Shown: positions 1 through 10,609, numbered from the stretch's first letter. The stretch: 10,609 bases of DNA from Candidatus Riflebacteria bacterium HGW-Riflebacteria-2 (GCA_002839435.1 PGYA01000016.1:64001-74609), one strand, 5' to 3'. Notes: generated from the letters alone by a model not told the origin. Numbers and translations are program-made.

Positions 1-134
1 TTGAGCATTCGCAGTTTTTCGAACCTACCGTCATGATTTCATCCTGGAACGAATGGACAGAAGGCCATTACCTTGAGCCCGACAAAAAGCACGGCTACGC
101 CTGGCTCGAAGCGGTAAGGTCGGTGCACGGCTGA
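1..134 (+). CDS. 3' end of an upstream gene, 5'-partial: C-terminal fragment of a glycan-processing protein resembling the WbsX / GH99-like family
   Basis: Frame 3 is open from the window edge and reads EHSQFFEPTVMISSWNEWTEGHYLEPDKKHGYAWLEAVRSVHG, ending at TGA 132-134. The SWNEWTEGHY block resembles the conserved NEW(G/T)EG C-terminal motif of WbsX-like glycosyltransferase / GH99-like proteins. The stop overlaps the next ATG (TGATG). Confidence 0.45.
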   Translation, partial: EHSQFFEPTVMISSWNEWTEGHYLEPDKKHGYAWLEAVRSVHG

Positions 135-1027
135 TGGATAAGAGATGGCCATTCTTTACGGTAGATGTCGAGCTGACAAATATCTGTGAGCAGAACTGCC
201 GTTTCTGCCCACGTGAAAAGCTGACGCGGCCGTCCGGCTTTATCGACACACAACTGTTGCACAGCATTATGCGTCAGCTCGCTGAAATTGGCTCACGCGT
301 GACCTTTTGTGGAATGGGCAACCCTTTGCTGCACCCGCAATGGGCTGAAATATGCACAATCTGTCATGCCAGCGGCGTCAAATACGGCCTTACCATTCAG
401 GCGCCGGCTCTTATCGAAGCCAATATTTCAAAAATCTGCGAACTCAGGCCGGCGTTTATCGAGGTTTCGTTTCCCAGCATCGATTCCGGGCACTTCGCAA
501 GAATTTATCCGGGCGAGAATCTTGCCAGTTCTCTCAATTCATTGAACCGGCTGGTTGCCGCGCGCGGTTCAGCGCGAGGAATCATCATAACAGCCGTAAG
601 AACCACCGACGACCCGACCGAACCGGCAGAGACCCTTGCTTTCTGGCAACAGAAAGGACTGCTGGTAAGAATACAACAATGCCATTCGCGCGGCGGCAAC
701 CTGCATGGGCAGACAACGACAGAAGCGCGCCGAATAACCAGTTGCGGCCTGTTCGCGACGCACTCGTTCATCACCTGGCAGGGCCTTCTGCTCGCCTGTT
801 GCCACGATCTCGCCGGCGCCACTGCTGTTGCCGATCTCAGGCAACTCTCGCTCGACCAGGCCGCCGCCGCTAAAATCGAAATTCTGCAAAAGCCAATGCC
901 CTGGCCGATCTGCGCAAACTGCGATGAGCCGGCGGCAATCCGCCCCCTGCCCGATCGCCCTTTCCCCGCAACAGAAAAAGCGCGAAGCCGCTATTTAAAA
1001 CGCCTCTGCGCTTCAGATCAGTCGTAA
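134..1027 (+). CDS. Radical SAM protein with a cysteine-rich SPASM/twitch-like C-terminal region
   Basis: 297-aa ORF. Canonical CxxxCxxC (TNICEQNCRFCP) sits at residues ~18-25. A GGE-like SAM-binding motif (FCGMGNPLL) is present. The C-terminal half has seven Cys (QQCH, SCG, ACCHD, PICANCDE) arranged like an auxiliary Fe-S cluster domain. Translationally coupled to the upstream gene by a TGATG overlap. Confidence 0.8.
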   Translation: MDKRWPFFTVDVELTNICEQNCRFCPREKLTRPSGFIDTQLLHSIMRQLAEIGSRVTFCGMGNPLLHPQWAEICTICHASGVKYGLTIQAPALIEANISKICELRPAFIEVSFPSIDSGHFARIYPGENLASSLNSLNRLVAARGSARGIIITAVRTTDDPTEPAETLAFWQQKGLLVRIQQCHSRGGNLHGQTTTEARRITSCGLFATHSFITWQGLLLACCHDLAGATAVADLRQLSLDQAAAAKIEILQKPMPWPICANCDEPAAIRPLPDRPFPATEKARSRYLKRLCASDQS

Positions 1028-1045
1028 TAGTATTTTTTTGGCTAT

Positions 1046-1064
1046 ACTAAACTTACAGTTTAGA
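1046..1064. terminator. Weak AT-rich hairpin between convergent genes; possible bidirectional terminator
   Basis: ctaaac-ttaca-gtttag forms a 6-bp stem with a 5-nt loop, between the plus-strand radical SAM gene (ends 1027) and the minus-strand TPR gene (stop 1107-1109). T-runs flank it on the plus strand. The stem is all A/T, so stability is low. Confidence 0.2.
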
Positions 1065-1106
1065 TTTGACGAAAATTTTTACTCTATTGAGGTTTTGCAA
1101 TGGCTG

Positions 1107-1979
1107 CTACTTCAGTTCGCTCAGTTCTTTGGCCATTTCTTCGAGGGCGCGGGTCAGTTCGACGCGGTGCTCCTGATCGAGATTCTTAGACTCTTTGAGC
1201 GCCTTGCCGGCTTCGCCAAAAGCTTTGCTGGCAGCTTCGCGATCTTTCAGCTTAAGCTGCAGGCGGCAGCGCAGAAAGCTGGTTTCGAGCTGGTAGTCAC
1301 TGCTCACTGAATCGAGCCAGCCCAGTGCCATTTCGTAGTTGCCCTGGCGCATGTGCAGGTTGGCAAGAGCAAAGGCCGGTGCGGTATCGGTCGGATCAAC
1401 GGCGAGACACTCGCTCAGTGCCATTTCGGCTTCGAGAAAACGCCCAAGCTTACTGAGCACGGTGCCCTTGTTGAAAAGCGCTGAACGTCTGACATGTTCA
1501 TTGTGCGCCAGTGCGTGCGCCTGTTCGAAGGCGCTGAGGGCCTGCTCGTTTTCGTCGAGAGCCAGATACATGTTACCGAGGGCGAGGTAAGCCTCGGGGA
1601 ACTGCGCTTTGAGCTCGATAGCTTTGAGCTGGGCGTTTATAGCTTCAGCAAACTTGCTGTTGAAGCCGAGCGCCAGGCCAAAATTATACATGGCTTCAGG
1701 TGATTCGGGGTTTTCGACTACGGCACGCCCGAGAATGGCTTCAGCTTCGCCGGTTTCGCCGGCGGCCAGCAGCCTGGCGCCTTCATTCACCAGCGCAAGC
1801 GAGCCAAGACTGCCGGGATCAACAGAAGCCGGAGCGGCAGCAGCAGAAAGGCCGGTGCGTGGCCTGGCTGGAACCGGTAATATCTCTTGCGCAGAAAGCA
1901 TCGGGCCGTTTGTCAGGCCAACACAGGCAACAGATGCAAGCAAAAGAGTTCGGATGTTGTTTTTTGCAGTATTTTTCAT
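1107..1979 (-). CDS. Secreted tetratricopeptide-repeat (TPR) protein
   Basis: 290 aa with an ATG start. N-terminal signal peptide MKNTAKNNIRTLLLASVACVGLTNGPMLSAQE. Multiple 34-residue TPR-like units follow (AEAILGRAVVENPESPEAMYNFGLALG..., AYLALGNMYLALDENEQALSAFEQA..., AFALANLHMRQGNYEMALGWL...). The start lies 14 bp downstream of the L,D-transpeptidase stop on the same strand, so the two form an operon. Confidence 0.8.
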   Translation of the reverse strand: MKNTAKNNIRTLLLASVACVGLTNGPMLSAQEILPVPARPRTGLSAAAAPASVDPGSLGSLALVNEGARLLAAGETGEAEAILGRAVVENPESPEAMYNFGLALGFNSKFAEAINAQLKAIELKAQFPEAYLALGNMYLALDENEQALSAFEQAHALAHNEHVRRSALFNKGTVLSKLGRFLEAEMALSECLAVDPTDTAPAFALANLHMRQGNYEMALGWLDSVSSDYQLETSFLRCRLQLKLKDREAASKAFGEAGKALKESKNLDQEHRVELTRALEEMAKELSELK

Positions 1980-1993
1980 GGTTAAAACCTGTT

Positions 1994-3196
1994 TCAGTTA
2001 TACTTGCCGGTCACAGATGTGATGATGACAGGAGTTCCGACTTTAACCAGCGAAAAGAGCTCTTCGGCGTCGGCAGTGAACATGCGCACGCAGCCGGCCG
2101 AGGCTTTTGAGCCGATCGACGACGGTGCCGAGGTTCCGTGCATTCCGATGCTGCCGCCCCAGCCAGCGCTCAGGCCCATCCAGCGGGTGCCAAGCGGGTT
2201 GTTGGCCGCGCCACCGGGTATATTCTTGTATTGCGGATTTACCGCTTTGTTGACTATCGAAAAGGCTCCCTGGGGAGTGCGCTTGTCGCCGACCTTCTGC
2301 TTGTTGGCCCCATCTGGGTTCGCACCATAAGCAATCGGGTAGATTCTTACGACCTTGCCGTTCGAATAAACGGTCGAAGTAAAATTGGCTTTGTTGATCA
2401 CGACTTTGTCGACAACAGCGGGATTGCTGCGCACTTTTTTGACTTCGTCAGAACCCTTGGCAAGCAGGCTGTAGATACCGTATTTTGCCCGGAATTCACG
2501 CAGAGCCGCCTGAGTGTCGGCATGGTTGAGCCCTTTCGTCGGCACCAGCTTCGTGTAGGCATTGTAAGCGATCATGAAATCCTGCTGAGCATACTCAACC
2601 AGCTTTGGTTCTGAGCGCTCGATCATCTTTTCGCCGCTGATCAGAGCAATTTGCGTCCAGCCGTCTTTTTCGCCAAGCACCGGAAAGGTTTTGCCGATAG
2701 TGCTTGTTGATACTATCGAATGGCTGGTTGATGGCCCGGATCTGAGGTTTACTTTGTCGAGAATCACCATGATCACCTTGCCGACCTGCGCACACATGTC
2801 GTTGCGCAGCCATGCCGACGGCTGTTGGCTTTCATCGACAGCGGTCACCGCCATGCTGATATTGTGCCAGCCCGACTGCGTTTTGATTACCGGAAACCGG
2901 TCACCGCGGCGCACCTGATCGAGAACCTCATAACCAAGACCCGGGCCTGATCTGACGTTAACCGTTCCCTGGGTAATGCGCAACTGGCCCTTATCGACAA
3001 TACCCATGTCCCCGCGCACCCAGCCACTCTCGCTGGCTGCGGCAGTCGAAGCAGCGACACCCGTTCTGGCGTTTCCAGAAGTCGTCGCCGGGGTATTATC
3101 AACCTCAAATATCGACTGTGCCGATGAAATGAAGGGCAAAACCAGCATGATGGCAAACATCAGCCAGCTCGCGGTTCGCATGAAGCTTTTTCTCAT
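1994..3196 (-). CDS. Exported L,D-transpeptidase (YkuD domain) with N-terminal bacterial SH3-like domains
   Basis: C-terminal YkuD signature: YPIAYGANPDG...NPLGTRWMGLS...GMHGTSAPSSIGSKASAGCVRM (His...Ser-x-Gly-Cys-[VI]-R-M catalytic motif). There are two SH3b-like segments (GTVNVRSGPGLGYEVLDQVRRGDRFPV and VILDKVNLRSGPSTSHSIV). I place the start at the ATG at 3194-3196 (MRKSFMRTASWLMFAIMLVLPFISSAQS, a clear signal peptide) with GGAGGG 8 nt upstream. The ORF-track start at 3223 is a TTG nine codons further upstream and has no RBS. Confidence 0.85.
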   Translation of the reverse strand: MRKSFMRTASWLMFAIMLVLPFISSAQSIFEVDNTPATTSGNARTGVAASTAAASESGWVRGDMGIVDKGQLRITQGTVNVRSGPGLGYEVLDQVRRGDRFPVIKTQSGWHNISMAVTAVDESQQPSAWLRNDMCAQVGKVIMVILDKVNLRSGPSTSHSIVSTSTIGKTFPVLGEKDGWTQIALISGEKMIERSEPKLVEYAQQDFMIAYNAYTKLVPTKGLNHADTQAALREFRAKYGIYSLLAKGSDEVKKVRSNPAVVDKVVINKANFTSTVYSNGKVVRIYPIAYGANPDGANKQKVGDKRTPQGAFSIVNKAVNPQYKNIPGGAANNPLGTRWMGLSAGWGGSIGMHGTSAPSSIGSKASAGCVRMFTADAEELFSLVKVGTPVIITSVTGKYN

Positions 3197-3388
3197 ATTG
3201 GTCCCTCCATGGGTGTCATACAACTATCTGATTATACGAAGATTTGCAGATCAGGTCAATGTAAGTTCTGAAGGGAATGATGGTCTGATATCTGCCATCT
3301 GAGGATTATCAAAAATCATTTTGCATGAAGAACTGATTTTGTTGTCTGAAACAGCCTTATGAAGCCTTTTGTGCAGTTTGCTTACTCT

Positions 3389-3976
3389 TTACAGCAGCGC
3401 TTTTAAAATCAGTGAACGGGCCTGGCTGATATTTCGCGAGACAGCTGGTGGAAAGGGCAAAACGAATACCTGCTCGGCCGTGTCGCTGACGAAGCGGATG
3501 ACGGCGCCGTTTAGCTCCCTGCCCTGCATGGCTTCGGCGAAAAAGAAGCTTTCCATATCGACCAGGCTGGCGTCGTATTTTGCGGCCAGTTGTGCGCGGT
3601 CGTCTCTGGTGATTGCCGGCTGGTCGACAGTTACAACTGCTGCCGGCGGCAGGTCGGCCGGGGCGGGCAGCTCAAGCTGACGACAAGCGTAAAAAAATCT
3701 GTTGCAACAGAACAGCTGGCCCACCTGCAGTTCGGGCGCGAGCGCTCCGGCTGCGCCAAATAGGATTATGCGTCGATAGCTGGCCTGTGTCAGTTCTCTA
3801 TCGAGCAGCGCAAACAAAGGGTCGCCGCCGGCGGCATTGGCTGTGACCAGCCGGCCACCTTTAAAAAACCAGCTTGCAGCGTCTGATTGCCGGCAATCTG
3901 GCAGGATAGCGGCCAGCAGCCTGGCTTCGGCTTTGAACGGCGCCAAAATAAGAGTCTGCGGGTCTGTCGGGCTCAT
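3389..3976 (-). CDS. MTA/SAH-nucleosidase (PNP_UDP_1) family protein, short futalosine-hydrolase-like form; candidate 5'-deoxyadenosine nucleosidase
   Basis: 195 aa. The segments ILFGAAGAL, VVTVDQPAITRDD, SLVDMESFFFAEA and AVIRFVSDTAEQ align by eye with the E. coli Pfs motifs INTGSAGGL, VSGDAFINGS, AVEMEATAIA and VRAISDVADQ. This includes the catalytic Glu in the (V/D)ME context and the Asp of the SD motif. The start overlaps the upstream gene stop by 4 nt (ATGA). Confidence 0.8.
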   Translation of the reverse strand: MSPTDPQTLILAPFKAEARLLAAILPDCRQSDAASWFFKGGRLVTANAAGGDPLFALLDRELTQASYRRIILFGAAGALAPELQVGQLFCCNRFFYACRQLELPAPADLPPAAVVTVDQPAITRDDRAQLAAKYDASLVDMESFFFAEAMQGRELNGAVIRFVSDTAEQVFVLPFPPAVSRNISQARSLILKALL

Positions 3977-5022
3977 TTCTGCAGACTCCGGTCAAGCATC
4001 TTTTTGAGATCCGCGCTGCCGAAAGTTGTGTTTTTTAGGCGTTCCCAGACTTCGGGGGTTTCCATGCACATGTAGATCGGCACGTCGACGAAGTGTTTCT
4101 GCAGACCGGCGCGGGCAAAATTGTAAATCTGCTCGCGGAAAGGCCTGAAATATCTGATCTTACCGTCAGTCGAAGGGTAAAATTCTTCGGCGAGAATGCC
4201 GGTGTCAGGGTGATATTTTTCGACGTTTTCCTGAAACCCTTTTGGGAAGCGAAAAGTGCCCAGGGAAATCCAGTTGATCTTAAGTCCGTGCAGATATTCG
4301 TGCATAAGCGCGAATACTTCTGAATAGCGTTCCTGCCAGTTCTGCAAGGGCAGTAACGGATCGAAATGAAACGCCAGCGCGCAGCCTTTTTCTCGGGCAG
4401 CCGAGGCTGCTGCATTCAGGCGCTCACGCAGTGAGGCCGCGCCATGTTCGAGGCGATCGATGTATTCCTGCGGATTCAGCGAAAAGGCCAGAGTTACGTG
4501 GCGCGCATCTTTTGCCTGCATTATTGCCTTTATATCAGAGCTTTTGCTTTTGACTTCGAGCGTGAAATCAGGCATTCCGGCGGTCCATTCAATGATCGCA
4601 GCGTTGAGCGGGAAAATTCCTTCGAGCGCGAGCGGATCGCCGAACTGGCCGGTGCCAAGTCTGATTGGCCCGCTGATGCGTTCGCGCAGGTCGATGATTT
4701 CTCGGCGGCAGTCTTCCCAGTTCAAGAAAAGTGTTACATCGCCGGCGCCGGTATAATTCTGGATTATGCAGTATTCGCACTCGAACGGGCAGCCCATCCC
4801 CCACTCCACTACCCAGTAACCGCAGCAGACGCTGCCTTTCTGACCCGGACATGGTTTTACAAACGCCCCGCGATTGAGAGTGAGCAGCAGACCATCGCCT
4901 GGATGCTGTTCGCCGCTGACTTCATGCCGCTGCTCAAATTCAATCAGGCTCTCGATCTGTTTTGCCAGCGGCAGATCCTTGACCCGCTCATCAACATAGA
5001 GGTTTTTGAAGCTCAGATTCAT
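3973..5022 (-). CDS. Radical SAM protein of the spore-photoproduct-lyase (SplB/SPL) family
   Basis: 349 aa. The N-terminal NLYVDERVKDLPLAKQIESL matches the SPL N-terminus VYIEPRALEYPLGKELKDKF of B. subtilis SplB. The radical SAM triad GCPFECEYC (C78-x3-C82-x2-C85) sits where SplB has CMGHCHYC. A second block, FSLNPQEYIDRLEHGAASLRERLNAAASAAREKGCALAFHFDPL, matches SplB FSINADYVIKNFEPGTSPLDKRIEAAVKVAKAGYPLGFIVAPI. ATG start with a 2-nt spacer after the ParB-like gene stop. Confidence 0.85.
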   Translation of the reverse strand: MNLSFKNLYVDERVKDLPLAKQIESLIEFEQRHEVSGEQHPGDGLLLTLNRGAFVKPCPGQKGSVCCGYWVVEWGMGCPFECEYCIIQNYTGAGDVTLFLNWEDCRREIIDLRERISGPIRLGTGQFGDPLALEGIFPLNAAIIEWTAGMPDFTLEVKSKSSDIKAIMQAKDARHVTLAFSLNPQEYIDRLEHGAASLRERLNAAASAAREKGCALAFHFDPLLPLQNWQERYSEVFALMHEYLHGLKINWISLGTFRFPKGFQENVEKYHPDTGILAEEFYPSTDGKIRYFRPFREQIYNFARAGLQKHFVDVPIYMCMETPEVWERLKNTTFGSADLKKMLDRSLQK

Positions 5023-5024
5023 TA

Positions 5025-5855
5025 TTAAAGCTCTTCGACGGCCGCGAAAATTGCATCGACTGCGGCCTGAGCTTCGGTTAAACGGCCGCTGTGCCGGCGG
5101 GTCAGATTGCAGGTCAGCTGCATGCCGGGTTTAGAAAACGTCTGGTCGATTTTTATGGTTATTCCTGGCGGCAGCGGGTTTTGTTCGAGGGCACGCGCGA
5201 ATTTGTCGAGCGCATCAGTTCTGCGCGGCTGCGCCAGGCGCTGCAGGTTTTCGAGTGCTTCGGCAGCATTGTTGCCGGGTAGTTTTTCTGGTAGAACTCT
5301 CTTTCGCTGGGCCTGCCGCAAAAACATCGCGATATTGCGCTTTTCAGAGACCGTGCCGGGCATGGTCAGCAGATCAAAGGCAAAAAGCTTCATGTCATCA
5401 CCAAGATGTGCAAGCTCTCGCCATATATTGAGCGGCAGATTATGCTTGCCACATTCAGGATGACAGAGCAGATTGCACCCGATAAAGCGCAGGGCAAGAC
5501 GTAGCTGGGGCGAGTCGGTGCATCCGGCCAGCTTCAACATTTCAGCATGATCTGATGGCGCACAGCTGGCAAATGCGGCTGTCAGCTCGCAAGCACTCAA
5601 CTCTCGATGACTGTTCAATTGAACAAACAGCAACGCCGGCAACCCGGTTGCTTCAATACAGGGCACACTGCTGTGCCCTAGTTCTTTAAGGGCAAGAAGC
5701 CGCCGGTGCCCGTCACAAACAGTGTTCTGAGCGATAACCAGTGGTTGTAAAACACCATTTTCTCTGATGCTGCACAACAATTTCTCTTCAACCGGCGCCG
5801 TGAATGAATCAATCAGTGGCATCAATTCATTTATCTGAACTTCAATAATTTTCAT
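5025..5855 (-). CDS. ParB/Srx-like nuclease-domain (ParBc) protein with a C-terminal extension of unknown function
   Basis: 276 aa with an ATG start. The N-terminal ~90 aa (LIDSFTAPVEEKLLCSIRENGVLQPLVIAQNTVCDGHRRLLALKELG) shows the ParB-like nuclease domain pattern (hydrophobic-DGHHR-l-A-k-lG). The remaining ~180 aa are Cys/His-containing with no motif I recognise. First gene of the three-gene operon. Confidence 0.7.
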   Translation of the reverse strand: MKIIEVQINELMPLIDSFTAPVEEKLLCSIRENGVLQPLVIAQNTVCDGHRRLLALKELGHSSVPCIEATGLPALLFVQLNSHRELSACELTAAFASCAPSDHAEMLKLAGCTDSPQLRLALRFIGCNLLCHPECGKHNLPLNIWRELAHLGDDMKLFAFDLLTMPGTVSEKRNIAMFLRQAQRKRVLPEKLPGNNAAEALENLQRLAQPRRTDALDKFARALEQNPLPPGITIKIDQTFSKPGMQLTCNLTRRHSGRLTEAQAAVDAIFAAVEEL

Positions 5856-5863
5856 GATACCGC

Positions 5864-5892
5864 ATTGTAACGCATACCGGCATCACCATCAA
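5864..5892 (-). promoter_or_regulatory. Candidate sigma70-like promoter for the ParB-like/SPL-like/MTAN-like operon; would give a near-leaderless transcript
   Basis: On the minus strand the sequence reads TTGATG-N17-TACAAT, with the -10 hexamer ending 8 nt before the ATG at 5855. No Shine-Dalgarno precedes this ATG. This assumes sigma70-type promoter rules apply to this organism. Confidence 0.25.
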
Positions 5893-6286
5893 GCAGCATA
5901 AGAGAGTTCATGGTATAACCCGCCCGCCGGCGACAGCTCGGCGGTCTGTTCTGCTCTAGTGGCCGTTACTCAACTAATTCGATCATAATCGAACTATTTG
6001 CATAAATTGTAGTTTAATTCTTTTATGATCAAATTTAATGAGCAGATCTTGTATTGGCAGATGAACCTGCTTGATTTTCTTCTTTAGCAGATAGATCCTG
6101 GAGAGCCGCGGTCTGAATTGGTCGCTGCGCAAAAAAACATACATGAAAGTTGGCTGCATCATATTCTTTTGTACGTATTTTCACTTACAGGCTGTTTGCG
6201 ACTTTTATGTAAGAATTATAGTAGTTCAGATGTAATACCTGTATGTGATTTTGGCTATGATAAGAGAAATGAATCCTCTCTGAATG

Positions 6287-6316
6287 GAGCTGCCTGCGCG
6301 GGCAGCTTCTTTTTCT
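6287..6316 (+). terminator. Canonical Rho-independent terminator (GC-rich hairpin plus T-tract) on the plus strand with no annotated upstream gene
   Basis: The stem agctgcc (6288-6294) pairs with ggcagct (6301-6307) across a 6-nt loop tgcgcg, and g6287:t6308 adds a wobble pair. The stem is followed immediately by tcttttttct. The reverse complement has no U-tract, so orientation is plus. Confidence 0.5.
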
Positions 6317-6372
6317 GAGCTATGATCCACTATTTTTAAATTTTGAGCTGTTTTGCAGCATTGCCCGCATTT

Positions 6373-6405
6373 CTAAAGAGCGCAGGGGTGAACCACGCGA
6401 AACCC
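6373..6405 (-). pseudogene. Orphan 3'-terminal remnant of an FGE-sulfatase-domain gene
   Basis: The 23 nt at 6383-6405 (caggggtgaaccacgcgaaaccc) match 22/23 with the 3' end of the FGE-domain gene (8294-8316, caggggcgaaccacgcgaaaccc). 19 nt also match the internal domain junction at 9399-9417. The minus strand here reads ...HHFGFRVVHPCAL*, against WKGFRVVRP* in the gene. The stop codon is mutated TGA to TGC and only ~14 codons are open upstream. Confidence 0.4.
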
Positions 6406-6416
6406 GAAATGATGAG

Positions 6417-6445
6417 TTGCAGATATTCAATCACCATGTTATTAT
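6417..6445 (+). promoter_or_regulatory. Candidate sigma70-like promoter upstream of the NTase-fold gene
   Basis: TTGCAG-N17-TATTAT at 6417-6445, about 37 nt upstream of the TTG start at 6483. The match is weak and assumes sigma70-type rules. Confidence 0.25.
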
Positions 6446-6482
6446 TAAGTTATACGTAAATACATTGTGGTAATAAATTATT

Positions 6483-7067
6483 TTGAATAGTCTAAGTTGC
6501 GAAAACTTAAAAGAGATTCTGAGTCGTCTCAGCGAATTGATCAGCCTTGAGACAAACCAGTGCTTTGAACTGGTTGTCTGCGGCGGTTCGGCTCTGATAG
6601 CACTTGGTTTGATTGAGCGAACTACGCGTGACATCGATGTTGTCGCTGTTGTAAAAGGCAATTTATTTGCGGACCCCGAACCCTTGCCGGCAGAGATGAT
6701 TAAAGCCGCTGCCAGAATTGCTCAATATTCAGATTTACCGGCTGACTGGTTGAACACGGGGCCTGCCGATATCTTCAGAATGGGGTTGCCAGATGGCTTT
6801 GGCAACAGGCTCGTTACCTGGCATGTCGGCAGGAACCTTGTCATACATTTTATCAGCCGGCTGGATCAGATTCATTTCAAACTCTACGCAGCAGTCGATC
6901 GCGGGGGATATCACATAACAGATCTCATGGCTCTCAACCCATGTGACAATGAAATTCTGCAGGCTGCGAGATGGGCACGAACTCATGATGTCTCTGATGG
7001 TTTCAAAGAAATGCTTGAATTCCTTTTAAAGGAACTGGGTTATGAAAGAATCATTGCTGAATTATAA
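6483..7067 (+). CDS. Minimal nucleotidyltransferase-fold (Pol-beta superfamily) protein; candidate toxin/antitoxin or defence component
   Basis: 194 aa. The NTase signature hG[GS]...D-x-D is present in ELVVCGGSALIALGLIERTTRDIDVVAV. The C-terminal helical part (HFKLYAAVDRGGYHITDLMAL) is typical of small NTase toxin/antitoxin proteins. The only in-frame start near the 5' end is TTG at 6483 and there is no clear RBS. The 3' end overlaps the next gene by 26 nt. Confidence 0.55.
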   Translation: MNSLSCENLKEILSRLSELISLETNQCFELVVCGGSALIALGLIERTTRDIDVVAVVKGNLFADPEPLPAEMIKAAARIAQYSDLPADWLNTGPADIFRMGLPDGFGNRLVTWHVGRNLVIHFISRLDQIHFKLYAAVDRGGYHITDLMALNPCDNEILQAARWARTHDVSDGFKEMLEFLLKELGYERIIAEL

Positions 7068-8076
7068 AAACCAGCTGCTGGAAAAGATGCTAAAACTTCT
7101 CTGGTCGGGCTGGGCACAGCTTGGCGTTGCAGGTTATAAACCAGTCCGCTGGAAAAGGGTTATCGACATCGAAGCCTTGATTCTGACCACATGCTTCTGG
7201 GGAAGATACGATCAACGGCTTTTTGATGAAATGCTGTCCTGGTTGCTGGCAAACGAAAGGTTTGTCAATATTCAGCGGCTCCAGACCATCATAAAAAAAG
7301 AGACTTTTCATGAACCGGGACTTCTTGGGCCAATAAGCCGCAAACTCTGCAGAAAAAATCGTACCCCGAAATGGCGTGGAATAGCAGGAAAACTGGAAAG
7401 ACAGCAGGCAGTATTACAGCCTGAAAAGCTGTTTTTGTTTCCTGATAATAAACCATTGCCTGTTATCGGCGCAGCCGACGATGATTTTGCTGAGTGCGGC
7501 TTTCTGCGACTGCCCTTTATAGATCGTCAGCTGTCGACAGACTTTACAACAGGGGTGGCGGCAACGCTGCAGCTACAGTTGCGGGCTTTTTTCGGAGTAT
7601 GTTCGCGAGCTGAAATCATGCTTGCATTTTTTATCAACAATCAGGCGAGTATAAGTGATATCGCTGCCAGCTCTTATTATTCATGGAAATCTATTCAGGA
7701 AGCTCTTTTTGAAATGTCTCATTCTGGCATTGTGAGCCATCCTGCGTCTAAGCGGGAAAGGCGTTACTATCTTGCCTCAGAAAACTGGACAAAACTGTTT
7801 ATTGGCCAGGAAACGGACTGCCCCGAAAAATTCCACTGGTGCAAATTTTTCAGCGCCATGGAAATTCTCTGGCAAAAGGTCACTAACCCTGCCTTCGGCA
7901 ATTTATCAGAGAAAAGCATGGATATTGAAATTGCAGATCTGGTAAACCAACATCTGCAAAGCCTGTTAACAGCAGCCGACGAAAATTGGCGGGTTTCTTC
8001 TCCCGCAACATCCTGTGAAAACTTCCTTGCAACTTTCTCGGCCTTTATAATCACTCAGCTTAAACAGCTTCAGTAA
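7042..8076 (+). CDS. Hypothetical protein (344 aa) overlapping the NTase-fold gene; putative cognate partner
   Basis: Long open frame with an ATG start (MKESLLNYKNQLLEKML...). Overlaps the preceding gene by 26 nt. GC appears lower than the flanks. I recognise no catalytic motif. Confidence 0.55.
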   Translation: MKESLLNYKNQLLEKMLKLLWSGWAQLGVAGYKPVRWKRVIDIEALILTTCFWGRYDQRLFDEMLSWLLANERFVNIQRLQTIIKKETFHEPGLLGPISRKLCRKNRTPKWRGIAGKLERQQAVLQPEKLFLFPDNKPLPVIGAADDDFAECGFLRLPFIDRQLSTDFTTGVAATLQLQLRAFFGVCSRAEIMLAFFINNQASISDIAASSYYSWKSIQEALFEMSHSGIVSHPASKRERRYYLASENWTKLFIGQETDCPEKFHWCKFFSAMEILWQKVTNPAFGNLSEKSMDIEIADLVNQHLQSLLTAADENWRVSSPATSCENFLATFSAFIITQLKQLQ

Positions 8077-8190
8077 CCTTCTCTCACACAGGCTTCACAG
8101 AAAAAAATGTGCCCGGTGGTAGTCGCGCTGTGAGCGGGAAGCGCTGCGGCTTGCCGCCTTCGCGCAACCCGCTCTCCGCACGCTGTCGCA

Positions 8191-8219
8191 CCCAGCTTCG
8201 GCTTGAGGCCGAAGCCGGG
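8191..8219. terminator. Strong GC-rich hairpin between convergent genes, without a U-tract
   Basis: ccc-a-gcttcggc-ttgag-gccgaagc-c-ggg forms a perfect 8-bp stem (8195-8202 with 8208-8215) plus three outer GC pairs across a 1x1 mismatch. It lies in the 216-bp GC-rich spacer between the plus-strand gene ending at 8076 and the minus-strand gene ending at 8293. Neither side has a T-run, so it is either a non-canonical terminator or another structured element. Confidence 0.3.
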
Positions 8220-8292
8220 AATGGATAATAATGGATCGTCACAGGATATGGTTTATACCTGACCGCACTATGATTGAGAAGCCTGGGTTAAC

Positions 8293-10609
8293 TCAGGGGC
8301 GAACCACGCGAAACCCTTTCCAGTTGGAAGCGGAAGCCATGCCCGCGCTATAACGACTGGGGAAGTAGCTGGGGTTGCTGCCGCCGCTGCCGCCACGACA
8401 GACCCGTCCTGAAGAACCAGTTAAAGCGCCGTGATAGTCATAGACAGTATTGCTTGGGTAGTTTTCAAAAAAGTCCCAGCACCATTCAAATACGTTACCG
8501 CTCATGTCATACAGACCCAGTTCATTCGCCAGTTTTGTTCCAACCGGGTGGGTCTTGAAGCTTGAATTATCACTAGACCAGGCATAATCGCCGACGGTAT
8601 TACTGCTATTGCTGCCAGCAAATGGCTTTGCATAACCAGTTAAATTAACTCCACCGCTCACGGCACCGGGTTGACTGTCCTGGTCAGCGCCCATTGCTGC
8701 CCACATCCATTCCATTTCGGTCGGCAGGCGATAACCATTAGCCGACCAGTTGCAGGTCGCCGCATCCCAGTCGGTATTAGTAGTGGTCGGTATTGCTGCG
8801 TAGGTAAGCGTCGAAAAGTCAACGCTATTAACTTCGTAGACAGGCGTCAGGCCTTCGGCAATACTGAGTTTGTTACAGAACGCGATCGCGCAATACCAGT
8901 TTGTGAATTGCACCGGGTCGGTGACGCCATTTGAAGTCTCTGTCACGCTTGGGTCAGATCCCATAATTGCACTGAACTGCGTTCTGGTAATCTCATGCTG
9001 GCTCATTCTGAAGCCTTTGGTGATTATTGAAATATTCGCCTCATCAGAATCCCGCTGAAACGACCCCGCTGGCACATACTTCAACGTCCCGATAGTTGCA
9101 GATGAGTAGTCACCCCATATCTGCTTGGCAGAGCTGTAAACGGTGCCGCTGTAGCTGTCTTTGCCGGCGGCGGCAACACGAACGTATTTACCGCTAGCTG
9201 TTTTGGCCAGATCAACGACATAAGTATTGGTGGTGACACCTGCAATATCGGCCCAACCGGCCGAACCGTCATCGCTGACCTGCCACTGATAAGTAACGGC
9301 GGCATAACTCGGGGTCAGTGCCCCGGCGGTCAGTGTCTGACCACTCTTTGGCAAACCAGTAATGCCACCAATCTCAGTCACCGGCACAATCACTGAGCGA
9401 ACCACGCGAAACCCGAAGCCGTTGCCCTGGTAGTTCGGGCTGCTCCTGTTACGGAAGGCCACGGTAGCTTTGTCCGCGGCAAAGGCCCAGCTACCGCCGC
9501 GCATCACACGGTCCGAGCCAGTTCCAGCACCACGGTAATCGGAGTTAGAATTCTCGGGGTAAATGTTATACCAGTCCCAGCAGAATTCCCAGGCGTTGCC
9601 ACTCATATCAGAGATGCCAAGTTCATTCGCCTGTTTTGTTCCAGCAGGGTGAGTCTTGCTGCTAGCATTATCAAAATACCATGCATAATCTCCAACTGCC
9701 CCCCCCATGCCCTCGCCAGCATACGCTTTATTGTATCCGGTAGTATTGGTTGCACCAGGATTGCCTGTGTCAGCGCCCATTGCTGCCCACATCCATTCCA
9801 TTTCGGTTGGCAATCGGTAACCATCTGCAGCCCAGTTGCAGGTCGCAGCGTTCCAGGTTGGGTTGTCACTTGTCGGCACTGCACCCCAGACAGACGGATC
9901 GGTTGAGCCGCTGATAGTGTAGACCGGAGTCAGGCCTTCGGCAATGCTCAGTTTGTTACAGAATGCAATCGCATGATACCAGTTAGCCATCTGCACAGGG
10001 TCGGAGACTCCGTTCGAATAGCTTGTATTACTCGGATCAGTACCCATAATCACATTGAACTGAGCCCTGGTTATCTCATGCGCGCTCATGCTGAACGCCG
10101 AAACAAATGATGTGTTTGCCGCGGTTGCGTCACGCTGAAAGGTTCCGGCGGTAACACTTACCATGGTCGGCATTCCCAGAATCTTTTCGGCAGCACTGAA
10201 AACCTCACCACAATAAGACCCATTACCTGTAGCAACAAGCCGGACATATTGCCCTGCAGCTGATTTGGCAGGATCAACTTCATAGCTGGCTGTAACGGCA
10301 CCGGATATATCAAGCCATGCGTTAACGCCATCATTACTTACCTGCCATCTATAATCAACCGTAGCCCCAACAGGAGTTATTTCTCCAGCTGTCAGCGTCT
10401 GCCCGCTCATCGGAATACCCGTAATCGCACCTATTGCGGTCACCGGTTCAGCGGTGGCTGCAAAAACAATTGAGACCAAACCCGAGTTGGCAGCATTGGT
10501 AGAAGTTCCGCCGGCAACTGTAAAGAAGTTTTCAGCAACGCCAGTCAGCGTAAAGCCGGCCTTCGGCGTAAGAGTTACTGTCGCAGTGTAAACTGTGCCT
10601 GCAGCAAAG
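8293..10609 (-). CDS. Large secreted/surface-type protein, 5'-partial (runs off the window end): Big-like segment plus 2 x [Ig-like domain + FGE-sulfatase (SUMF1/EgtB/PvdO-type) domain]
   Basis: The ORF-track start at 10479 is a TTG. The frame stays open to 10609 (…FAAGTVYTATVTLTPKAGFTLTGVAENFFTVAGGTSTNAANSGLVS IVF…), so the true start lies beyond the window. There are two FGE-domain copies with the hallmarks GYRLPTEMEWMWAAMGAD, DMSGN(A/V)(W/F)E(F/W)CWD, RGGS and GFRVVR. Each is preceded by an Ig-like module (ITG(I/L)P(M/K)SGQTLTAG...Y(R/Q)WQVS(N/D)DG). Confidence 0.85.
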   Translation of the reverse strand, partial: FAAGTVYTATVTLTPKAGFTLTGVAENFFTVAGGTSTNAANSGLVSIVFAATAEPVTAIGAITGIPMSGQTLTAGEITPVGATVDYRWQVSNDGVNAWLDISGAVTASYEVDPAKSAAGQYVRLVATGNGSYCGEVFSAAEKILGMPTMVSVTAGTFQRDATAANTSFVSAFSMSAHEITRAQFNVIMGTDPSNTSYSNGVSDPVQMANWYHAIAFCNKLSIAEGLTPVYTISGSTDPSVWGAVPTSDNPTWNAATCNWAADGYRLPTEMEWMWAAMGADTGNPGATNTTGYNKAYAGEGMGGAVGDYAWYFDNASSKTHPAGTKQANELGISDMSGNAWEFCWDWYNIYPENSNSDYRGAGTGSDRVMRGGSWAFAADKATVAFRNRSSPNYQGNGFGFRVVRSVIVPVTEIGGITGLPKSGQTLTAGALTPSYAAVTYQWQVSDDGSAGWADIAGVTTNTYVVDLAKTASGKYVRVAAAGKDSYSGTVYSSAKQIWGDYSSATIGTLKYVPAGSFQRDSDEANISIITKGFRMSQHEITRTQFSAIMGSDPSVTETSNGVTDPVQFTNWYCAIAFCNKLSIAEGLTPVYEVNSVDFSTLTYAAIPTTTNTDWDAATCNWSANGYRLPTEMEWMWAAMGADQDSQPGAVSGGVNLTGYAKPFAGSNSSNTVGDYAWSSDNSSFKTHPVGTKLANELGLYDMSGNVFEWCWDFFENYPSNTVYDYHGALTGSSGRVCRGGSGGSNPSYFPSRYSAGMASASNWKGFRVVRP
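8296..9393 (-). repeat. Tandem duplication unit B (Ig-like + FGE domain, residues 363-728 of the visible ORF)
   Basis: Copy offset from unit A is about 1.09 kb. Long near-identical nucleotide runs support this, e.g. 8689-8721 and 9777-9809 (gcccattgctgcccacatccattccatttcggt), and 8850-8880 against 9939-9969. Confidence 0.7.
9394..10452 (-). repeat. Tandem duplication unit A (Ig-like + FGE domain, residues ~11-362 of the visible ORF)
   Basis: The two units are colinear at the protein level and match at most positions, with long identical blocks such as LTPVY, CNKLSIAEGLTPVY, GYRLPTEMEWMWAAMGAD and KTHP(A/V)GTK(Q/L)ANELG. The unit boundary falls exactly after GFRVVRS. Confidence 0.7.

What the first reader, a model, noticed from the sequence alone, without database searches (positions are those of the whole stretch)
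6373..6405. 23-nt near-perfect copy of the FGE-domain gene 3' terminus stranded in an intergenic region 1.9 kb away
caggggtgaaccacgcgaaaccc (6383-6405) differs at one position from the sequence spanning the last codons of the minus-strand FGE-domain gene (8294-8316). It also matches 19 nt at the domain A/B junction inside that gene (9399-9417). On the minus strand the orphan copy still encodes the family C-terminal GFRVV motif (…HHFGFRVVHPCAL*), but with the stop mutated and only ~14 codons open. This looks like the decayed 3' end of another FGE-domain paralogue, or a recombination/deletion scar. That fits the internally duplicated, repeat-prone nature of the neighbouring gene. It implies that the NTase pair and/or the region between were inserted into, or replaced most of, an ancestral FGE-domain gene.
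Basis: seen in the sequence. Interest (0 to 1): 0.5.

Follow-up and report, generated by a model that had tools for sequence, protein, structure and literature searches.

The report
Gene-end scar beside inserted toxin-antitoxin-like cassette
The 23-base orphan is a dead 39-base stub of an FGE-family gene end, left where a small self-contained two-gene cassette was inserted; the stub is ordinary, but the same cassette is bracketed by duplicated host sequence in other bacterial phyla too.

Summary
In detail: 6383-6405 matches 8294-8316 at 22/23 and 9399-9417 at 19/19, and reads HHFGFRVVHPCAL* on the minus strand.

The match is not specific to the neighbouring gene. This Riflebacteria FGE subfamily ends almost invariably in GFRVVRP*, often with the same codons. 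An FGE gene from another Riflebacteria genome matches a sister strain's copy of the orphan 22/23.

The orphan is still a real gene-end fragment.
- Its downstream side carries a terminator block (6165-6320) homologous to the 3' flank of an intact FGE gene in a sister strain.
- Its upstream side stops at 6411/6412, the conserved left end of a 1.7-kb cassette (DUF6036 nucleotidyltransferase plus a winged-helix partner, 6412-8105).
- That junction occurs in three strains, and the stub drifts at the same rate as its flanks.
- No FGE homology lies beyond it.

In the sister strain two copies of [terminator block + FGE 3' end] bracket the cassette. Locus-specific two-copy direct repeats bracket the same cassette in 7 of 70 other genomes against 0 of 173 shifted controls.

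The best reading is an old "insertion with long target duplication", a mode described for restriction-modification genes. A lost full paralogue remains possible. Interest is modest.

The parts
6373..6411 (-). Orphan FGE-family 3'-end stub, reading HFGFRVVHPCAL plus stop. It is non-functional.
   Evidence: Translation. It is bounded upstream by the start of cassette homology at 6412. The same stub occurs in L096 and L097-L099, with substitutions at the same rate as the flanks: 3 differences in 39 nt by reading alignment A3, against 228/248 identity overall.
6383..6405 (.). The reported 23-nt repeat copy (GFRVVHP codons plus TG).
   Evidence: It matches 8294-8316 at 22/23.
8294..8316 (-). 3' terminus of the intact FGE gene (GFRVVRP plus TG of the TGA stop).
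9399..9417 (-). Third copy of the motif, at the end of the first FGE domain (GFGFRVVRS).
6165..6320 (+). Block 'S-T': a conserved 48-nt segment S (6169-6216) and a hairpin plus T-run terminator T (6286-6315). This is the native 3' flank of the gene that the stub came from.
   Evidence: Terminator scan. It is homologous to L010 1965-2145, which lies directly 3' of an intact 323-aa FGE gene. The hairpin stem differs between the two loci while its position is kept.
6412..8105 (+). Cassette core: an AT-rich leader, the DUF6036 nucleotidyltransferase gene (6483-7067), and a 344-aa winged-helix partner gene (7042-8076).
   Evidence: Only this interval is shared, at 94.5% identity, with L010-L013. 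L014 shares 6417-8071 at 71% and L015 shares 6437-7877 at 67%, each in a different context. Pfam finds DUF6036 and a weak AbiEii hit, and PADLOC a weak AbiEii hit. The AlphaFold2 model of the partner has pLDDT 89.8, and its only PDB fold matches are MarR-like winged helices. GC is 45% against 54% for 1-5855.
8106..8292 (.). Filler 'Z' between the cassette core and the FGE stop codon. It is 59% GC and has a perfect 8-bp hairpin at about 8196-8216.
   Evidence: Sequence. It has no homologue in any fetched locus and no FGE homology.
8293..10609 (-). FGE-sulfatase-domain surface protein gene. It has two [Ig-like + FGE] modules and N-terminal ~95-aa repeats, and runs off the window and off the contig (at least 973 aa).
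6024..6053 (.). Left limit of the variable, low-GC block that holds S-T, the stub and the cassette.
   Evidence: The sequence upstream of the ParB-like gene is conserved with relatives L003-L007 up to about 6023. The 94%-identity block shared with L096 starts at 6053, whereas the adjacent ParB-like gene is only 71% identical.

Best explanation
The orphan is a non-functional insertion scar. It is the truncated inner end of the left arm of an old duplicative insertion, of the kind called 'insertion with long target duplication'.

The inserted unit is a self-contained, integrase-less two-gene cassette: a DUF6036 nucleotidyltransferase with a winged-helix partner, resembling an AbiE-type toxin-antitoxin module. 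It was placed at the 3' end of an FGE-family gene.

The proposed steps are as follows.
1. The last ~39 nt of that gene, together with ~220 nt of its 3' flank (block S-T, including the terminator), ended up on both sides of the cassette.
2. The left copy is the stub at 6373-6411 plus S-T.
3. The right copy stayed attached to the intact gene, as is still seen in the sister strain.
4. In the window's strain the right side was later exchanged, so the cassette now faces filler Z and a different, two-domain FGE gene.

The 22/23 identity to that gene's terminus reflects family-wide nucleotide conservation of the GFRVVRP* end, not a recent copy.

Shown directly: the stub, its native 3' flank, the cassette's discrete ends, the junction shared among three strains, drift at the same rate as the flanks, and the recurrence of bracketing repeats around this cassette elsewhere.

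Inferred: that the duplication arose at insertion, the order of events, and the molecular mechanism. Possible mechanisms are a staggered break with fill-in, or single-crossover integration of a circularised fragment.
For: 1. The cassette is a discrete unit found in different contexts. Only 6412-8105 is shared with L010-L013 (94.5%), and about the same interval with L014 and L015.
2. The stub|cassette junction is identical in the window, in L096, and in strain B once an IS insertion is removed. The IS has 16-nt inverted ends and a 2-bp AT duplication.
3. Strain B reconstructs as ParB - S-T - stub - [IS] - cassette - Y - S'-T' - intact FGE gene, so two copies of [S-T + FGE 3' end] bracket the cassette. 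The contigs come from the same three samples with similar coverage. The arms are 60-63% identical over 154 aligned nt, with an 83%-identical 48-nt block.
4. No FGE coding remnant lies next to the stub or beyond the cassette, in Y, Z or U'. A simple insertion into a full gene is therefore not what remains.
5. The same cassette family is bracketed by locus-specific, two-copy direct repeats of 19-138 nt in 7 of 70 loci from other genomes, against 0 of 173 shifted control positions (Fisher p = 1.3e-4; details).
6. In L051 the repeat starts at the stop codon of a convergent periplasmic-binding-protein gene, and the orphan copy keeps that gene's hairpin terminator. This is the same geometry as in the window. 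In L015 the repeat is the 3' end of the adjacent fvmX5 gene.
7. A canonical AbiEii/DUF6088 pair next to another Riflebacteria FGE gene is bracketed by an 82-nt repeat with 1898-nt spacing.
8. The cassette encodes no recombinase and has lower GC than the genome.
9. The mode is documented for restriction-modification gene units: repeats of 46-423 bp, some overlapping the 3' ends of genes, with no mobility genes (PMC2853133, read).
Against: - No empty-site allele was found for this or any other locus. The only metagenome hit for the left flank (L096) is also filled.
- In the window itself the repeat is only 23 nt and can be explained by family conservation alone.
- The strain B arms are only about 60-63% identical with several indels. 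The duplication would therefore be much older than the split between the window strain and strain B (92% identity), and the arms could equally be paralogous gene ends.
- Strain B is assembled from separate contigs joined by inference through an IS.
- 63 of 70 tested loci show no two-copy bracketing repeat within 600 nt (59 show no repeat at all), and four repeat pairs proved to be multi-copy intergenic repeats.
- In several loci one repeat copy is separated from the gene pair by 100-350 nt of unexplained 'filler'.
Confidence: 0.5

Rival explanations
1. Relic of a separate, once full-length FGE paralogue. In this reading, tandem FGE genes each had an S-T-type 3' flank. The cassette, with Y or Z, then replaced the body and promoter of the left gene, leaving its last 12-13 codons.
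For: - The stub has its own stop, tail and terminator block, like an independent gene end.
- Its PCAL tail resembles the native tail of an intact family member (P0113, RPCVLIKV).
- The strain B arms are as diverged (60-63%) as old paralogues would be.
- FGE genes are multi-copy and modular in these genomes.
Against: - No FGE remnant exists on either side of the cassette in either strain. This reading therefore needs an insertion plus a ~1-kb deletion whose ends coincide with the cassette's conserved left end and with the left limit of S' homology.
- It does not explain why unrelated genes are partially duplicated around the same cassette in other phyla.
Confidence: 0.3
2. A recent, direct duplication of the present neighbour's terminus. 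In this reading a 23-24-nt target-site or att-like duplication was made when a 1.9-kb element (6406-8293) integrated at the stop codon of the two-domain FGE gene, with S-T being that gene's native 3' flank.
For: - The identity is 22/23 with sharp edges, and the repeat starts at the stop codon.
- The 1911-nt spacing lies inside the 1775-2049-nt range seen at other bracketed loci.
Against: - Unrelated Riflebacteria FGE termini match equally well, at 21-22/23.
- The unit shared with the sister strain ends at 8105, not 8293, and Z has no counterpart there.
- The sister strain has a different FGE gene, with its own S'-T', to the right of the same cassette and the same left junction.
- No integrase or terminal inverted repeats were found.
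Confidence: 0.1
3. Remnant of a diversity-generating retroelement (DGR) template repeat or homing signal. In this reading the FGE-type domain is a DGR variable protein, and the orphan is the 3' end of a lost template copy.
For: - Close homologues end in an invariant GFRVVRP preceded by about 25 hypervariable residues.
- The FGE-type C-type-lectin fold is a known DGR target scaffold, according to the abstracts of PMC5006420 and PMC6328139 listed.
- The single mismatch is an A in the orphan against a G in the gene on the coding strand.
Against: - No reverse transcriptase or accessory gene occurs in the 16.2 kb of the source contig examined (locus L001).
- The similarity is 23 nt, not about 100 nt.
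- The two FGE domain ends are not related by adenine-only differences.
- The stub sits on a gene-type 3' flank.
Confidence: 0.04
4. A functional short element, for example an antisense or operator site regulating the FGE gene or the cassette.
For: The + strand of the orphan is complementary to the FGE mRNA at two places.
Against: - It lies outside the conserved cassette leader and is absent upstream of the same cassette in L010, L014 and L015.
- It accumulates substitutions at the same rate as its flanks in three strains.
- There is no Rfam match.
Confidence: 0.02

Closest known systems
Insertion with long target duplication of restriction-modification gene units (Nobusato et al. 2000, as cited in Furuta, Abe & Kobayashi 2010, Nucleic Acids Res 38:2428, PMC2853133)
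   Same: A small 'selfish' gene unit with no integrase or transposase and lower GC is inserted between direct repeats made from local host sequence. The repeats are tens to hundreds of bp long, vary in length, and often overlap the 3' end of a neighbouring gene (compared).
   Different: - The cargo here is a nucleotidyltransferase plus winged-helix pair rather than restriction-modification genes.
- The window's own repeat is 23 nt, below that paper's 30-bp criterion.
- The longer arms are seen only in the sister strain and are about 60% identical.
- No empty site was found, whereas the published cases rest on filled-versus-empty genome comparisons.
Displaced native 3' gene ends left by elements that integrate into protein-coding genes (for example the icd pseudogene beside prophage e14 in E. 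coli; recalled from my own knowledge, not checked here)
   Same: An orphan 3'-end fragment with its native terminator lies on the far side of the insert, while the intact gene ends in a nearly identical sequence.
   Different: Those cases use a site-specific integrase and one fixed attachment site. Here there is no integrase, and the bracketing repeats differ at every locus.
AbiE type IV toxin-antitoxin / abortive-infection modules (AbiEi winged-helix antitoxin plus AbiEii nucleotidyltransferase toxin)
   Same: A two-gene operon with overlapping genes encodes a small nucleotidyltransferase with weak AbiEii similarity and a winged-helix partner. A canonical AbiEii/DUF6088 pair shows the same bracketing next to an FGE gene in L103.
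   Different: The gene order is reversed, with the nucleotidyltransferase first. The nucleotidyltransferase falls in DUF6036, and its AbiEii score is below the Pfam cut-off. The 344-aa partner matches no AbiEi model. Toxicity was not tested.

Membership tests
Insertion with long target duplication | The inserted unit carries no integrase, transposase or other mobility gene. | tested here: met
   6406-8293 holds only the DUF6036 gene and the winged-helix partner. No terminal inverted repeats were found.
Insertion with long target duplication | Direct repeats longer than 30 bp, made of local target sequence and unique in the genome, abut the insert. | tested here: inconclusive
   In the window the repeat is only 23 nt and is a family-conserved motif. 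Strain B has arms of about 250 nt at 60-63% identity. Other loci have two-copy repeats of 44-138 nt at 89-100% identity. Uniqueness across a whole genome could not be checked.
Insertion with long target duplication | A related genome has an empty site with a single copy of the repeated sequence. | tested here: not met
   The only additional contig carrying the left flank (L096) is also filled. Relatives with a ParB-like gene at about 70% identity have different neighbours.
Decayed FGE-sulfatase paralogue (pseudogene) | Residual homology to FGE domains beyond the terminal motif, in some frame. | tested here: not met
   tblastn of both FGE proteins against 5856-8292 and against Y, Z and U' gave only the 13-residue terminal match (E = 1.5) and noise.
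Decayed FGE-sulfatase paralogue (pseudogene) | A gene-type context: its own stop codon and a 3' flank homologous to that of an intact family member. | tested here: met
   S-T (6165-6320) aligns with L010 1965-2145, which lies directly 3' of an intact FGE gene.
Site-specific (integrase/att) genomic islet | An integrase gene and the same core attachment sequence at independent insertions. | tested here: not met
   No integrase was found. The bracketing repeats are unrelated in sequence between loci.
Transposon with target-site duplication | Terminal inverted repeats and a short duplication of fixed length. | tested here: not met
   No inverted repeats lie at 6406-6440 or 8070-8293. Repeat lengths elsewhere range from 19 to 138 nt.
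Diversity-generating retroelement (template repeat / homing signal) | A reverse transcriptase nearby, and a ~100-nt template/variable repeat pair differing at adenines. | tested here: not met
   No reverse transcriptase occurs in the 16.2 kb of the source contig examined (L001). The repeat is 23 nt.
AbiE type IV toxin-antitoxin system | An AbiEii (PF08843) nucleotidyltransferase toxin, an AbiEi antitoxin, and demonstrated toxicity or neutralisation. | tested here: inconclusive
   The AbiEii hit has E = 1e-3 at 19.5 bits, below the 22.5-bit cut-off, whereas the DUF6036 hit at 36.4 bits is above its cut-off. PADLOC gives AbiEii at E = 3e-4. The partner has a winged helix by fold only. Function cannot be tested with these tools.

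The most novel reading that the evidence does not exclude
DUF6036/winged-helix cassettes, and at least some canonical AbiE pairs, may be integrase-less selfish modules that spread across many phyla by 'insertion with long target duplication', often at the 3' ends of host genes. The phyla sampled include Riflebacteria, Hydrogenedentota, Verrucomicrobiota, Lentisphaerota and Elusimicrobiota. This mode is so far documented for restriction-modification genes and still has no known mechanism. The window's orphan would be one aged footprint of it. Contigs that end inside the second repeat copy (L015, L017, L026, L082) would then hint at excised circles or polymorphic sites.
Probability: 0.35. Interest if true: 0.6.

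Novelty: new member of a known kind. Interest (0 to 1): 0.33.

Why it matters
The stub itself matters little. It is a neutral scar that dates and locates an insertion.

The wider pattern is more useful. How toxin-antitoxin and defence cassettes without any recombinase move between chromosomal sites is poorly understood. A cassette family that repeatedly carries locus-specific flanking duplications would extend the unexplained 'long target duplication' mode beyond restriction-modification systems. It would also supply many natural junctions from which the mechanism could be inferred.

There is a practical caution too. Near-perfect short matches to FGE-type gene termini in these genomes reflect family-wide nucleotide conservation and should not be read as recent copies.

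Tried and rejected
- **Extended decayed homology.** tblastn and blastn of the FGE genes against 5856-8292 and against Y, Z and U' found nothing beyond the motif.
- **Structured RNA or tRNA integration target.** There is no Rfam or tRNA hit in the window.
- **Synteny through the ParB-like neighbour.** Relatives at 60-80% identity have AsmA-like or unrelated neighbours and no FGE gene or cassette, so they cannot serve as empty sites.
- **Empty-site search.** A 24-mer from the orphan's left flank, searched in JGI metagenomes, found only a second filled allele.
- **Recombinase role for the 344-aa partner.** The confident AlphaFold2 model matches only MarR-like winged helices. The afdb50 fold library was unavailable.
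- **DGR reading.** This was rejected because no reverse transcriptase or ~100-nt template repeat was found in the DNA examined (window and locus L001).
- **Exact 24-nt terminus in viral contigs.** There were no hits.
- **Cassette on plasmids or phages.** There were no tblastn hits.
- **First repeat census.** The initial count of about 17 of 80 bracketed loci was too generous. L063, L077, L086 and L092 carry multi-copy intergenic or tandem repeats, and L016/L017 are flanked by whole PDDEXK_2 paralogue genes. The stricter count is 7 of 70 against 0 of 173 controls.
- **Circular-permutation idea.** Testing whether Z or Y matched the other side of the cassette in other loci found no homology.

Full report
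**Observation**

- 6383-6405 matches 8294-8316 at 22 of 23 positions. The latter is the last codons of the minus-strand FGE gene plus TG of its stop.
- 6390-6408 is identical to 9399-9417, at the end of the first FGE domain.
- The shared 16-mer occurs three times in the window, against 0.01 expected.
- On the minus strand the orphan reads *ISATHHFGFRVVHPCAL*.

**Source and genes**

The window is an exact piece of a 27.6-kb metagenome contig, ENA ERZ27239240 k141_29977. It comes from a Candidatus Riflebacteria organism: the ParB-like protein is identical to one from HGW-Riflebacteria-2.

The genes around the orphan are as follows.

| Coordinates | Strand | Gene |
|---|---|---|
| 5025-5855 | - | ParB-N-like gene |
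| 6483-7067 | + | DUF6036 nucleotidyltransferase |
| 7042-8076 | + | overlapping 344-aa gene with no Pfam match |
| 8293 onward | - | FGE-sulfatase surface protein, at least 973 aa, running off the contig |

GC falls from about 54% to 37-47% between about 5850 and 8100.

**How far the homology goes**

tblastn of the FGE protein against 5856-8292 finds only SATHHFGFRVVHP (E = 1.5) and noise. Contigs from a related strain (L010-L013) share only 6412-8105 with the window, at 94.5% identity. More distant copies share 6417-8071 (L014, 71%) and 6437-7877 (L015, 67%), each in a different genomic context.

The nucleotidyltransferase pair with its AT-rich leader is therefore a discrete cassette whose left end is at about 6412. 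The SATH codons belong to the cassette. The FGE-derived stub is at most 6373-6411.

**The stub is a real gene end**

In L010 an intact 323-aa FGE gene (FGE', ending NIGFRVACNKE*) is followed by a + strand hairpin terminator and a conserved 48-nt segment. The window carries the homologous block S-T at 6165-6320, immediately 3' of the stub's stop. The hairpin stem differs in sequence between the two loci, but its position is the same.

**The junction is shared by three strains**

- A JGI metagenome contig (L096) carries S-T, the stub and the start of the cassette at 93.7% identity to the window. Its adjacent ParB-like gene is only 71% identical.
- Contigs L097-L099 come from the same three samples as L010-L013. 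They carry the ParB-like gene, S-T and the stub (here HHFGFRVVRPCAL*) at 89% identity, and then end about 50 nt into GAATCTATCCCAAAAC.
- L010/L013 begin about 50 nt before the inverted counterpart GTTTTGGGATAGGTTC, which abuts the cassette. The flanks overlap by AT.

The simplest reading of the last two points is an insertion sequence sitting exactly at the stub|cassette junction in this strain (strain B). Its order is then ParB - S-T - stub - [IS] - cassette - Y - S'-T' - FGE'.

The stub differs among strains at about the same rate as its flanks. There are 3 differences in 39 nt by reading the alignment, against 228/248 identity overall. It is therefore drifting and not under selection.

**Why 22/23 is not evidence of a copy of the neighbour**

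Nearly all of the 120 closest homologues of the FGE domain end in GFRVVRP*, preceded by about 25 highly variable residues. The nucleotide conservation shows in a matrix of the 23-nt termini.

| Comparison | Identity |
|---|---|
| Window orphan vs window FGE end | 22/23 |
| Strain B orphan (L098) vs FGE end from another Riflebacteria genome (L103) | 22/23 |
| Window FGE end vs L103 FGE end | 21/23 |
| FGE end from an unidentified organism (L102) vs the above | 18-19/23 |

One intact homologue, P0113, ends GFRVVRPCVLIKV, so the orphan's PCAL tail may be a native variant rather than a mutated stop. Across the 103 fetched loci the 13-mer core occurs only at FGE termini, at the domain junction, and at the orphan copies.

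**What made the stub**

In strain B the cassette (with Y) is bracketed by two copies of [S-T + FGE 3' end]. The left copy is cut at the cassette's left end, and the right copy continues into the intact gene. The arms are 60-63% identical over 154 aligned nt, with well-conserved blocks. No FGE coding remnant exists in Y, Z or U'.

This is the form expected of a duplicative insertion. A lost-paralogue origin would need an insertion plus a ~1-kb deletion whose ends happen to coincide with the cassette end and with the limit of S' homology.

In the window's strain the right side is different: Z (8106-8292, 59% GC, no homologue anywhere fetched) followed by the two-domain FGE gene. One lineage has therefore exchanged that side since the shared junction arose.

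**The cassette elsewhere**

An alignment of the 344-aa partner retrieved 80 loci from species-representative genomes of many phyla.

- Same-strand repeats between the two flanks were common.
- After removing repeats with more than two copies in the locus (L063, L077, L086 and L092), two-copy repeats within 600 nt of the gene pair remained in 7 of 70 loci. Positions shifted by 3-4.5 kb gave 0 of 173 (Fisher p = 1.3e-4).
- Repeat sequences are unrelated between loci, 19-138 nt long and 89-100% identical. The interval between them is 1.75-1.94 kb.
- In L051 the repeat begins at the stop codon of a convergent periplasmic-binding-protein gene, and the orphan copy keeps that gene's hairpin terminator. 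This geometry is the same as in the window.
- In L015 the repeat is the 3' end of the neighbouring fvmX5 gene.
- Several contigs end inside the second copy (L015, L017, L026, L082).
- In another Riflebacteria genome (L103) a canonical AbiEii/DUF6088 pair lies convergent to an FGE gene and is bracketed by an 82-nt repeat at 84-87% identity with 1898-nt spacing.

**Nature of the cassette**

The DUF6036 hit is above its Pfam cut-off. The AbiEii similarity is weak in both Pfam and PADLOC. The partner folds confidently (pLDDT 89.8), and its only PDB fold matches are MarR-like winged helices.

No recombinase or transposase is present. No homologues were found in the plasmid or phage collections. No paper in the searched library mentions DUF6036.

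**Comparison with what is known**

[quoted passage not shown] Their repeats are 46-423 bp, some overlap the 3' ends of genes, and the inserts often differ in GC from the genome. The mechanism is unknown.

The present cassette shows the same form. The window, however, fails two of that paper's criteria: its repeat is shorter than 30 bp, and no empty site was found. I therefore describe the cassette as behaving like such an insertion. I file it only tentatively as a new cargo type for that mode.

**Verdict**

The orphan is a genuine FGE gene-end scar created with the arrival of the nucleotidyltransferase cassette, and it is non-functional.
- It is not demonstrably a copy of the neighbouring gene's terminus, and there is no evidence for a decayed full-length paralogue.
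- Duplicative insertion is the best-supported origin (about 0.5). A replaced paralogue is the main rival (about 0.3).
- The finding itself is ordinary. The recurrent bracketing of this cassette family is the part worth following up.

Noticed in passing
window 8293-8420, and homologues P0071-P0190: Close homologues of the FGE domain almost all end in an invariant GFRVVRP*, preceded by about 25 hypervariable residues. This looks like the variable region of a diversity-generating retroelement target. The second FGE domain in the window has an unusually scrambled version of that stretch. No reverse transcriptase or template repeat occurs in the DNA examined (window and locus L001).
   Followed up: partly
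L103 1133-3891: In another Riflebacteria genome an FGE gene with its hairpin terminator is followed by a convergent canonical AbiEii/DUF6088 pair. That pair is bracketed by an 82-nt direct repeat (1911-1992 and 3809-3891, 84-87% identity, 1898-nt spacing).
   Followed up: partly
L098 1-51 and L013 1-52 (strain B): Both contigs end about 50 nt inside inverted 16-nt ends (GAATCTATCCCAAAAC / GTTTTGGGATAGGTTC) with a 2-bp AT overlap of the flanks. This implies an insertion sequence sitting exactly at the stub|cassette junction in that strain. The element itself was not recovered.
   Followed up: partly
L016 4275-8234 and L017 4303-7779: In two Riflebacteria relatives the same cassette sits between two PD-(D/E)XK 'PDDEXK_2' (Rpn-like putative transposase) paralogue genes that are 91-96% identical. 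The arrangement resembles a composite element.
   Followed up: partly
L015 1-11107: Here the cassette lies at the end of an FtsH-MoxR-vWA ('fvm') conflict-system operon. A repeat of at least 69 nt at 97% identity, made from the 3' end of the fvmX5 gene, recurs after the cassette, and the contig ends inside the second copy.
   Followed up: partly
window 10479-10609 and L001 1-730: The N-terminus of the FGE protein carries at least three tandem ~95-aa repeats that are 87-92% identical at the DNA level. The contig ends within them, so the gene is incomplete and the assembly probably broke on the repeats.
   Followed up: no
window 3389-5855; L003, L007, L008, L097, L101: A three-gene set is conserved across Riflebacteria contigs while its surroundings vary. 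It comprises a ParB-N-like gene, a radical-SAM gene of the spore-photoproduct-lyase family, and a PNP/UDP-phosphorylase-like gene. Its function is unknown.
   Followed up: no
window 6286-6315 vs L010 2113-2140: The + strand terminator hairpin lying tail-to-tail with the FGE gene end keeps its position and loop but has a different stem sequence in the two loci (GCTGCC...GGCAGC against CCACC...GGTGG). The structure rather than the sequence is conserved. Nothing obvious on the + strand upstream of it needs terminating in the window.
   Followed up: no
L086 4290-4700 (Oligosphaera ethanolica DSM 24202): A tandem array of ~43-nt units lies upstream of the cassette. Copies recur downstream of the cassette and again about 2.5 kb further on. 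These multi-copy repeats mimic a bracketing duplication.
   Followed up: partly
window 8106-8292: The 187-nt filler between the cassette and the FGE stop codon is GC-rich (59%), contains a perfect 8-bp hairpin (GCTTCGGC...GCCGAAGC), and has no homologue in any fetched locus. Its origin is unexplained.
   Followed up: partly
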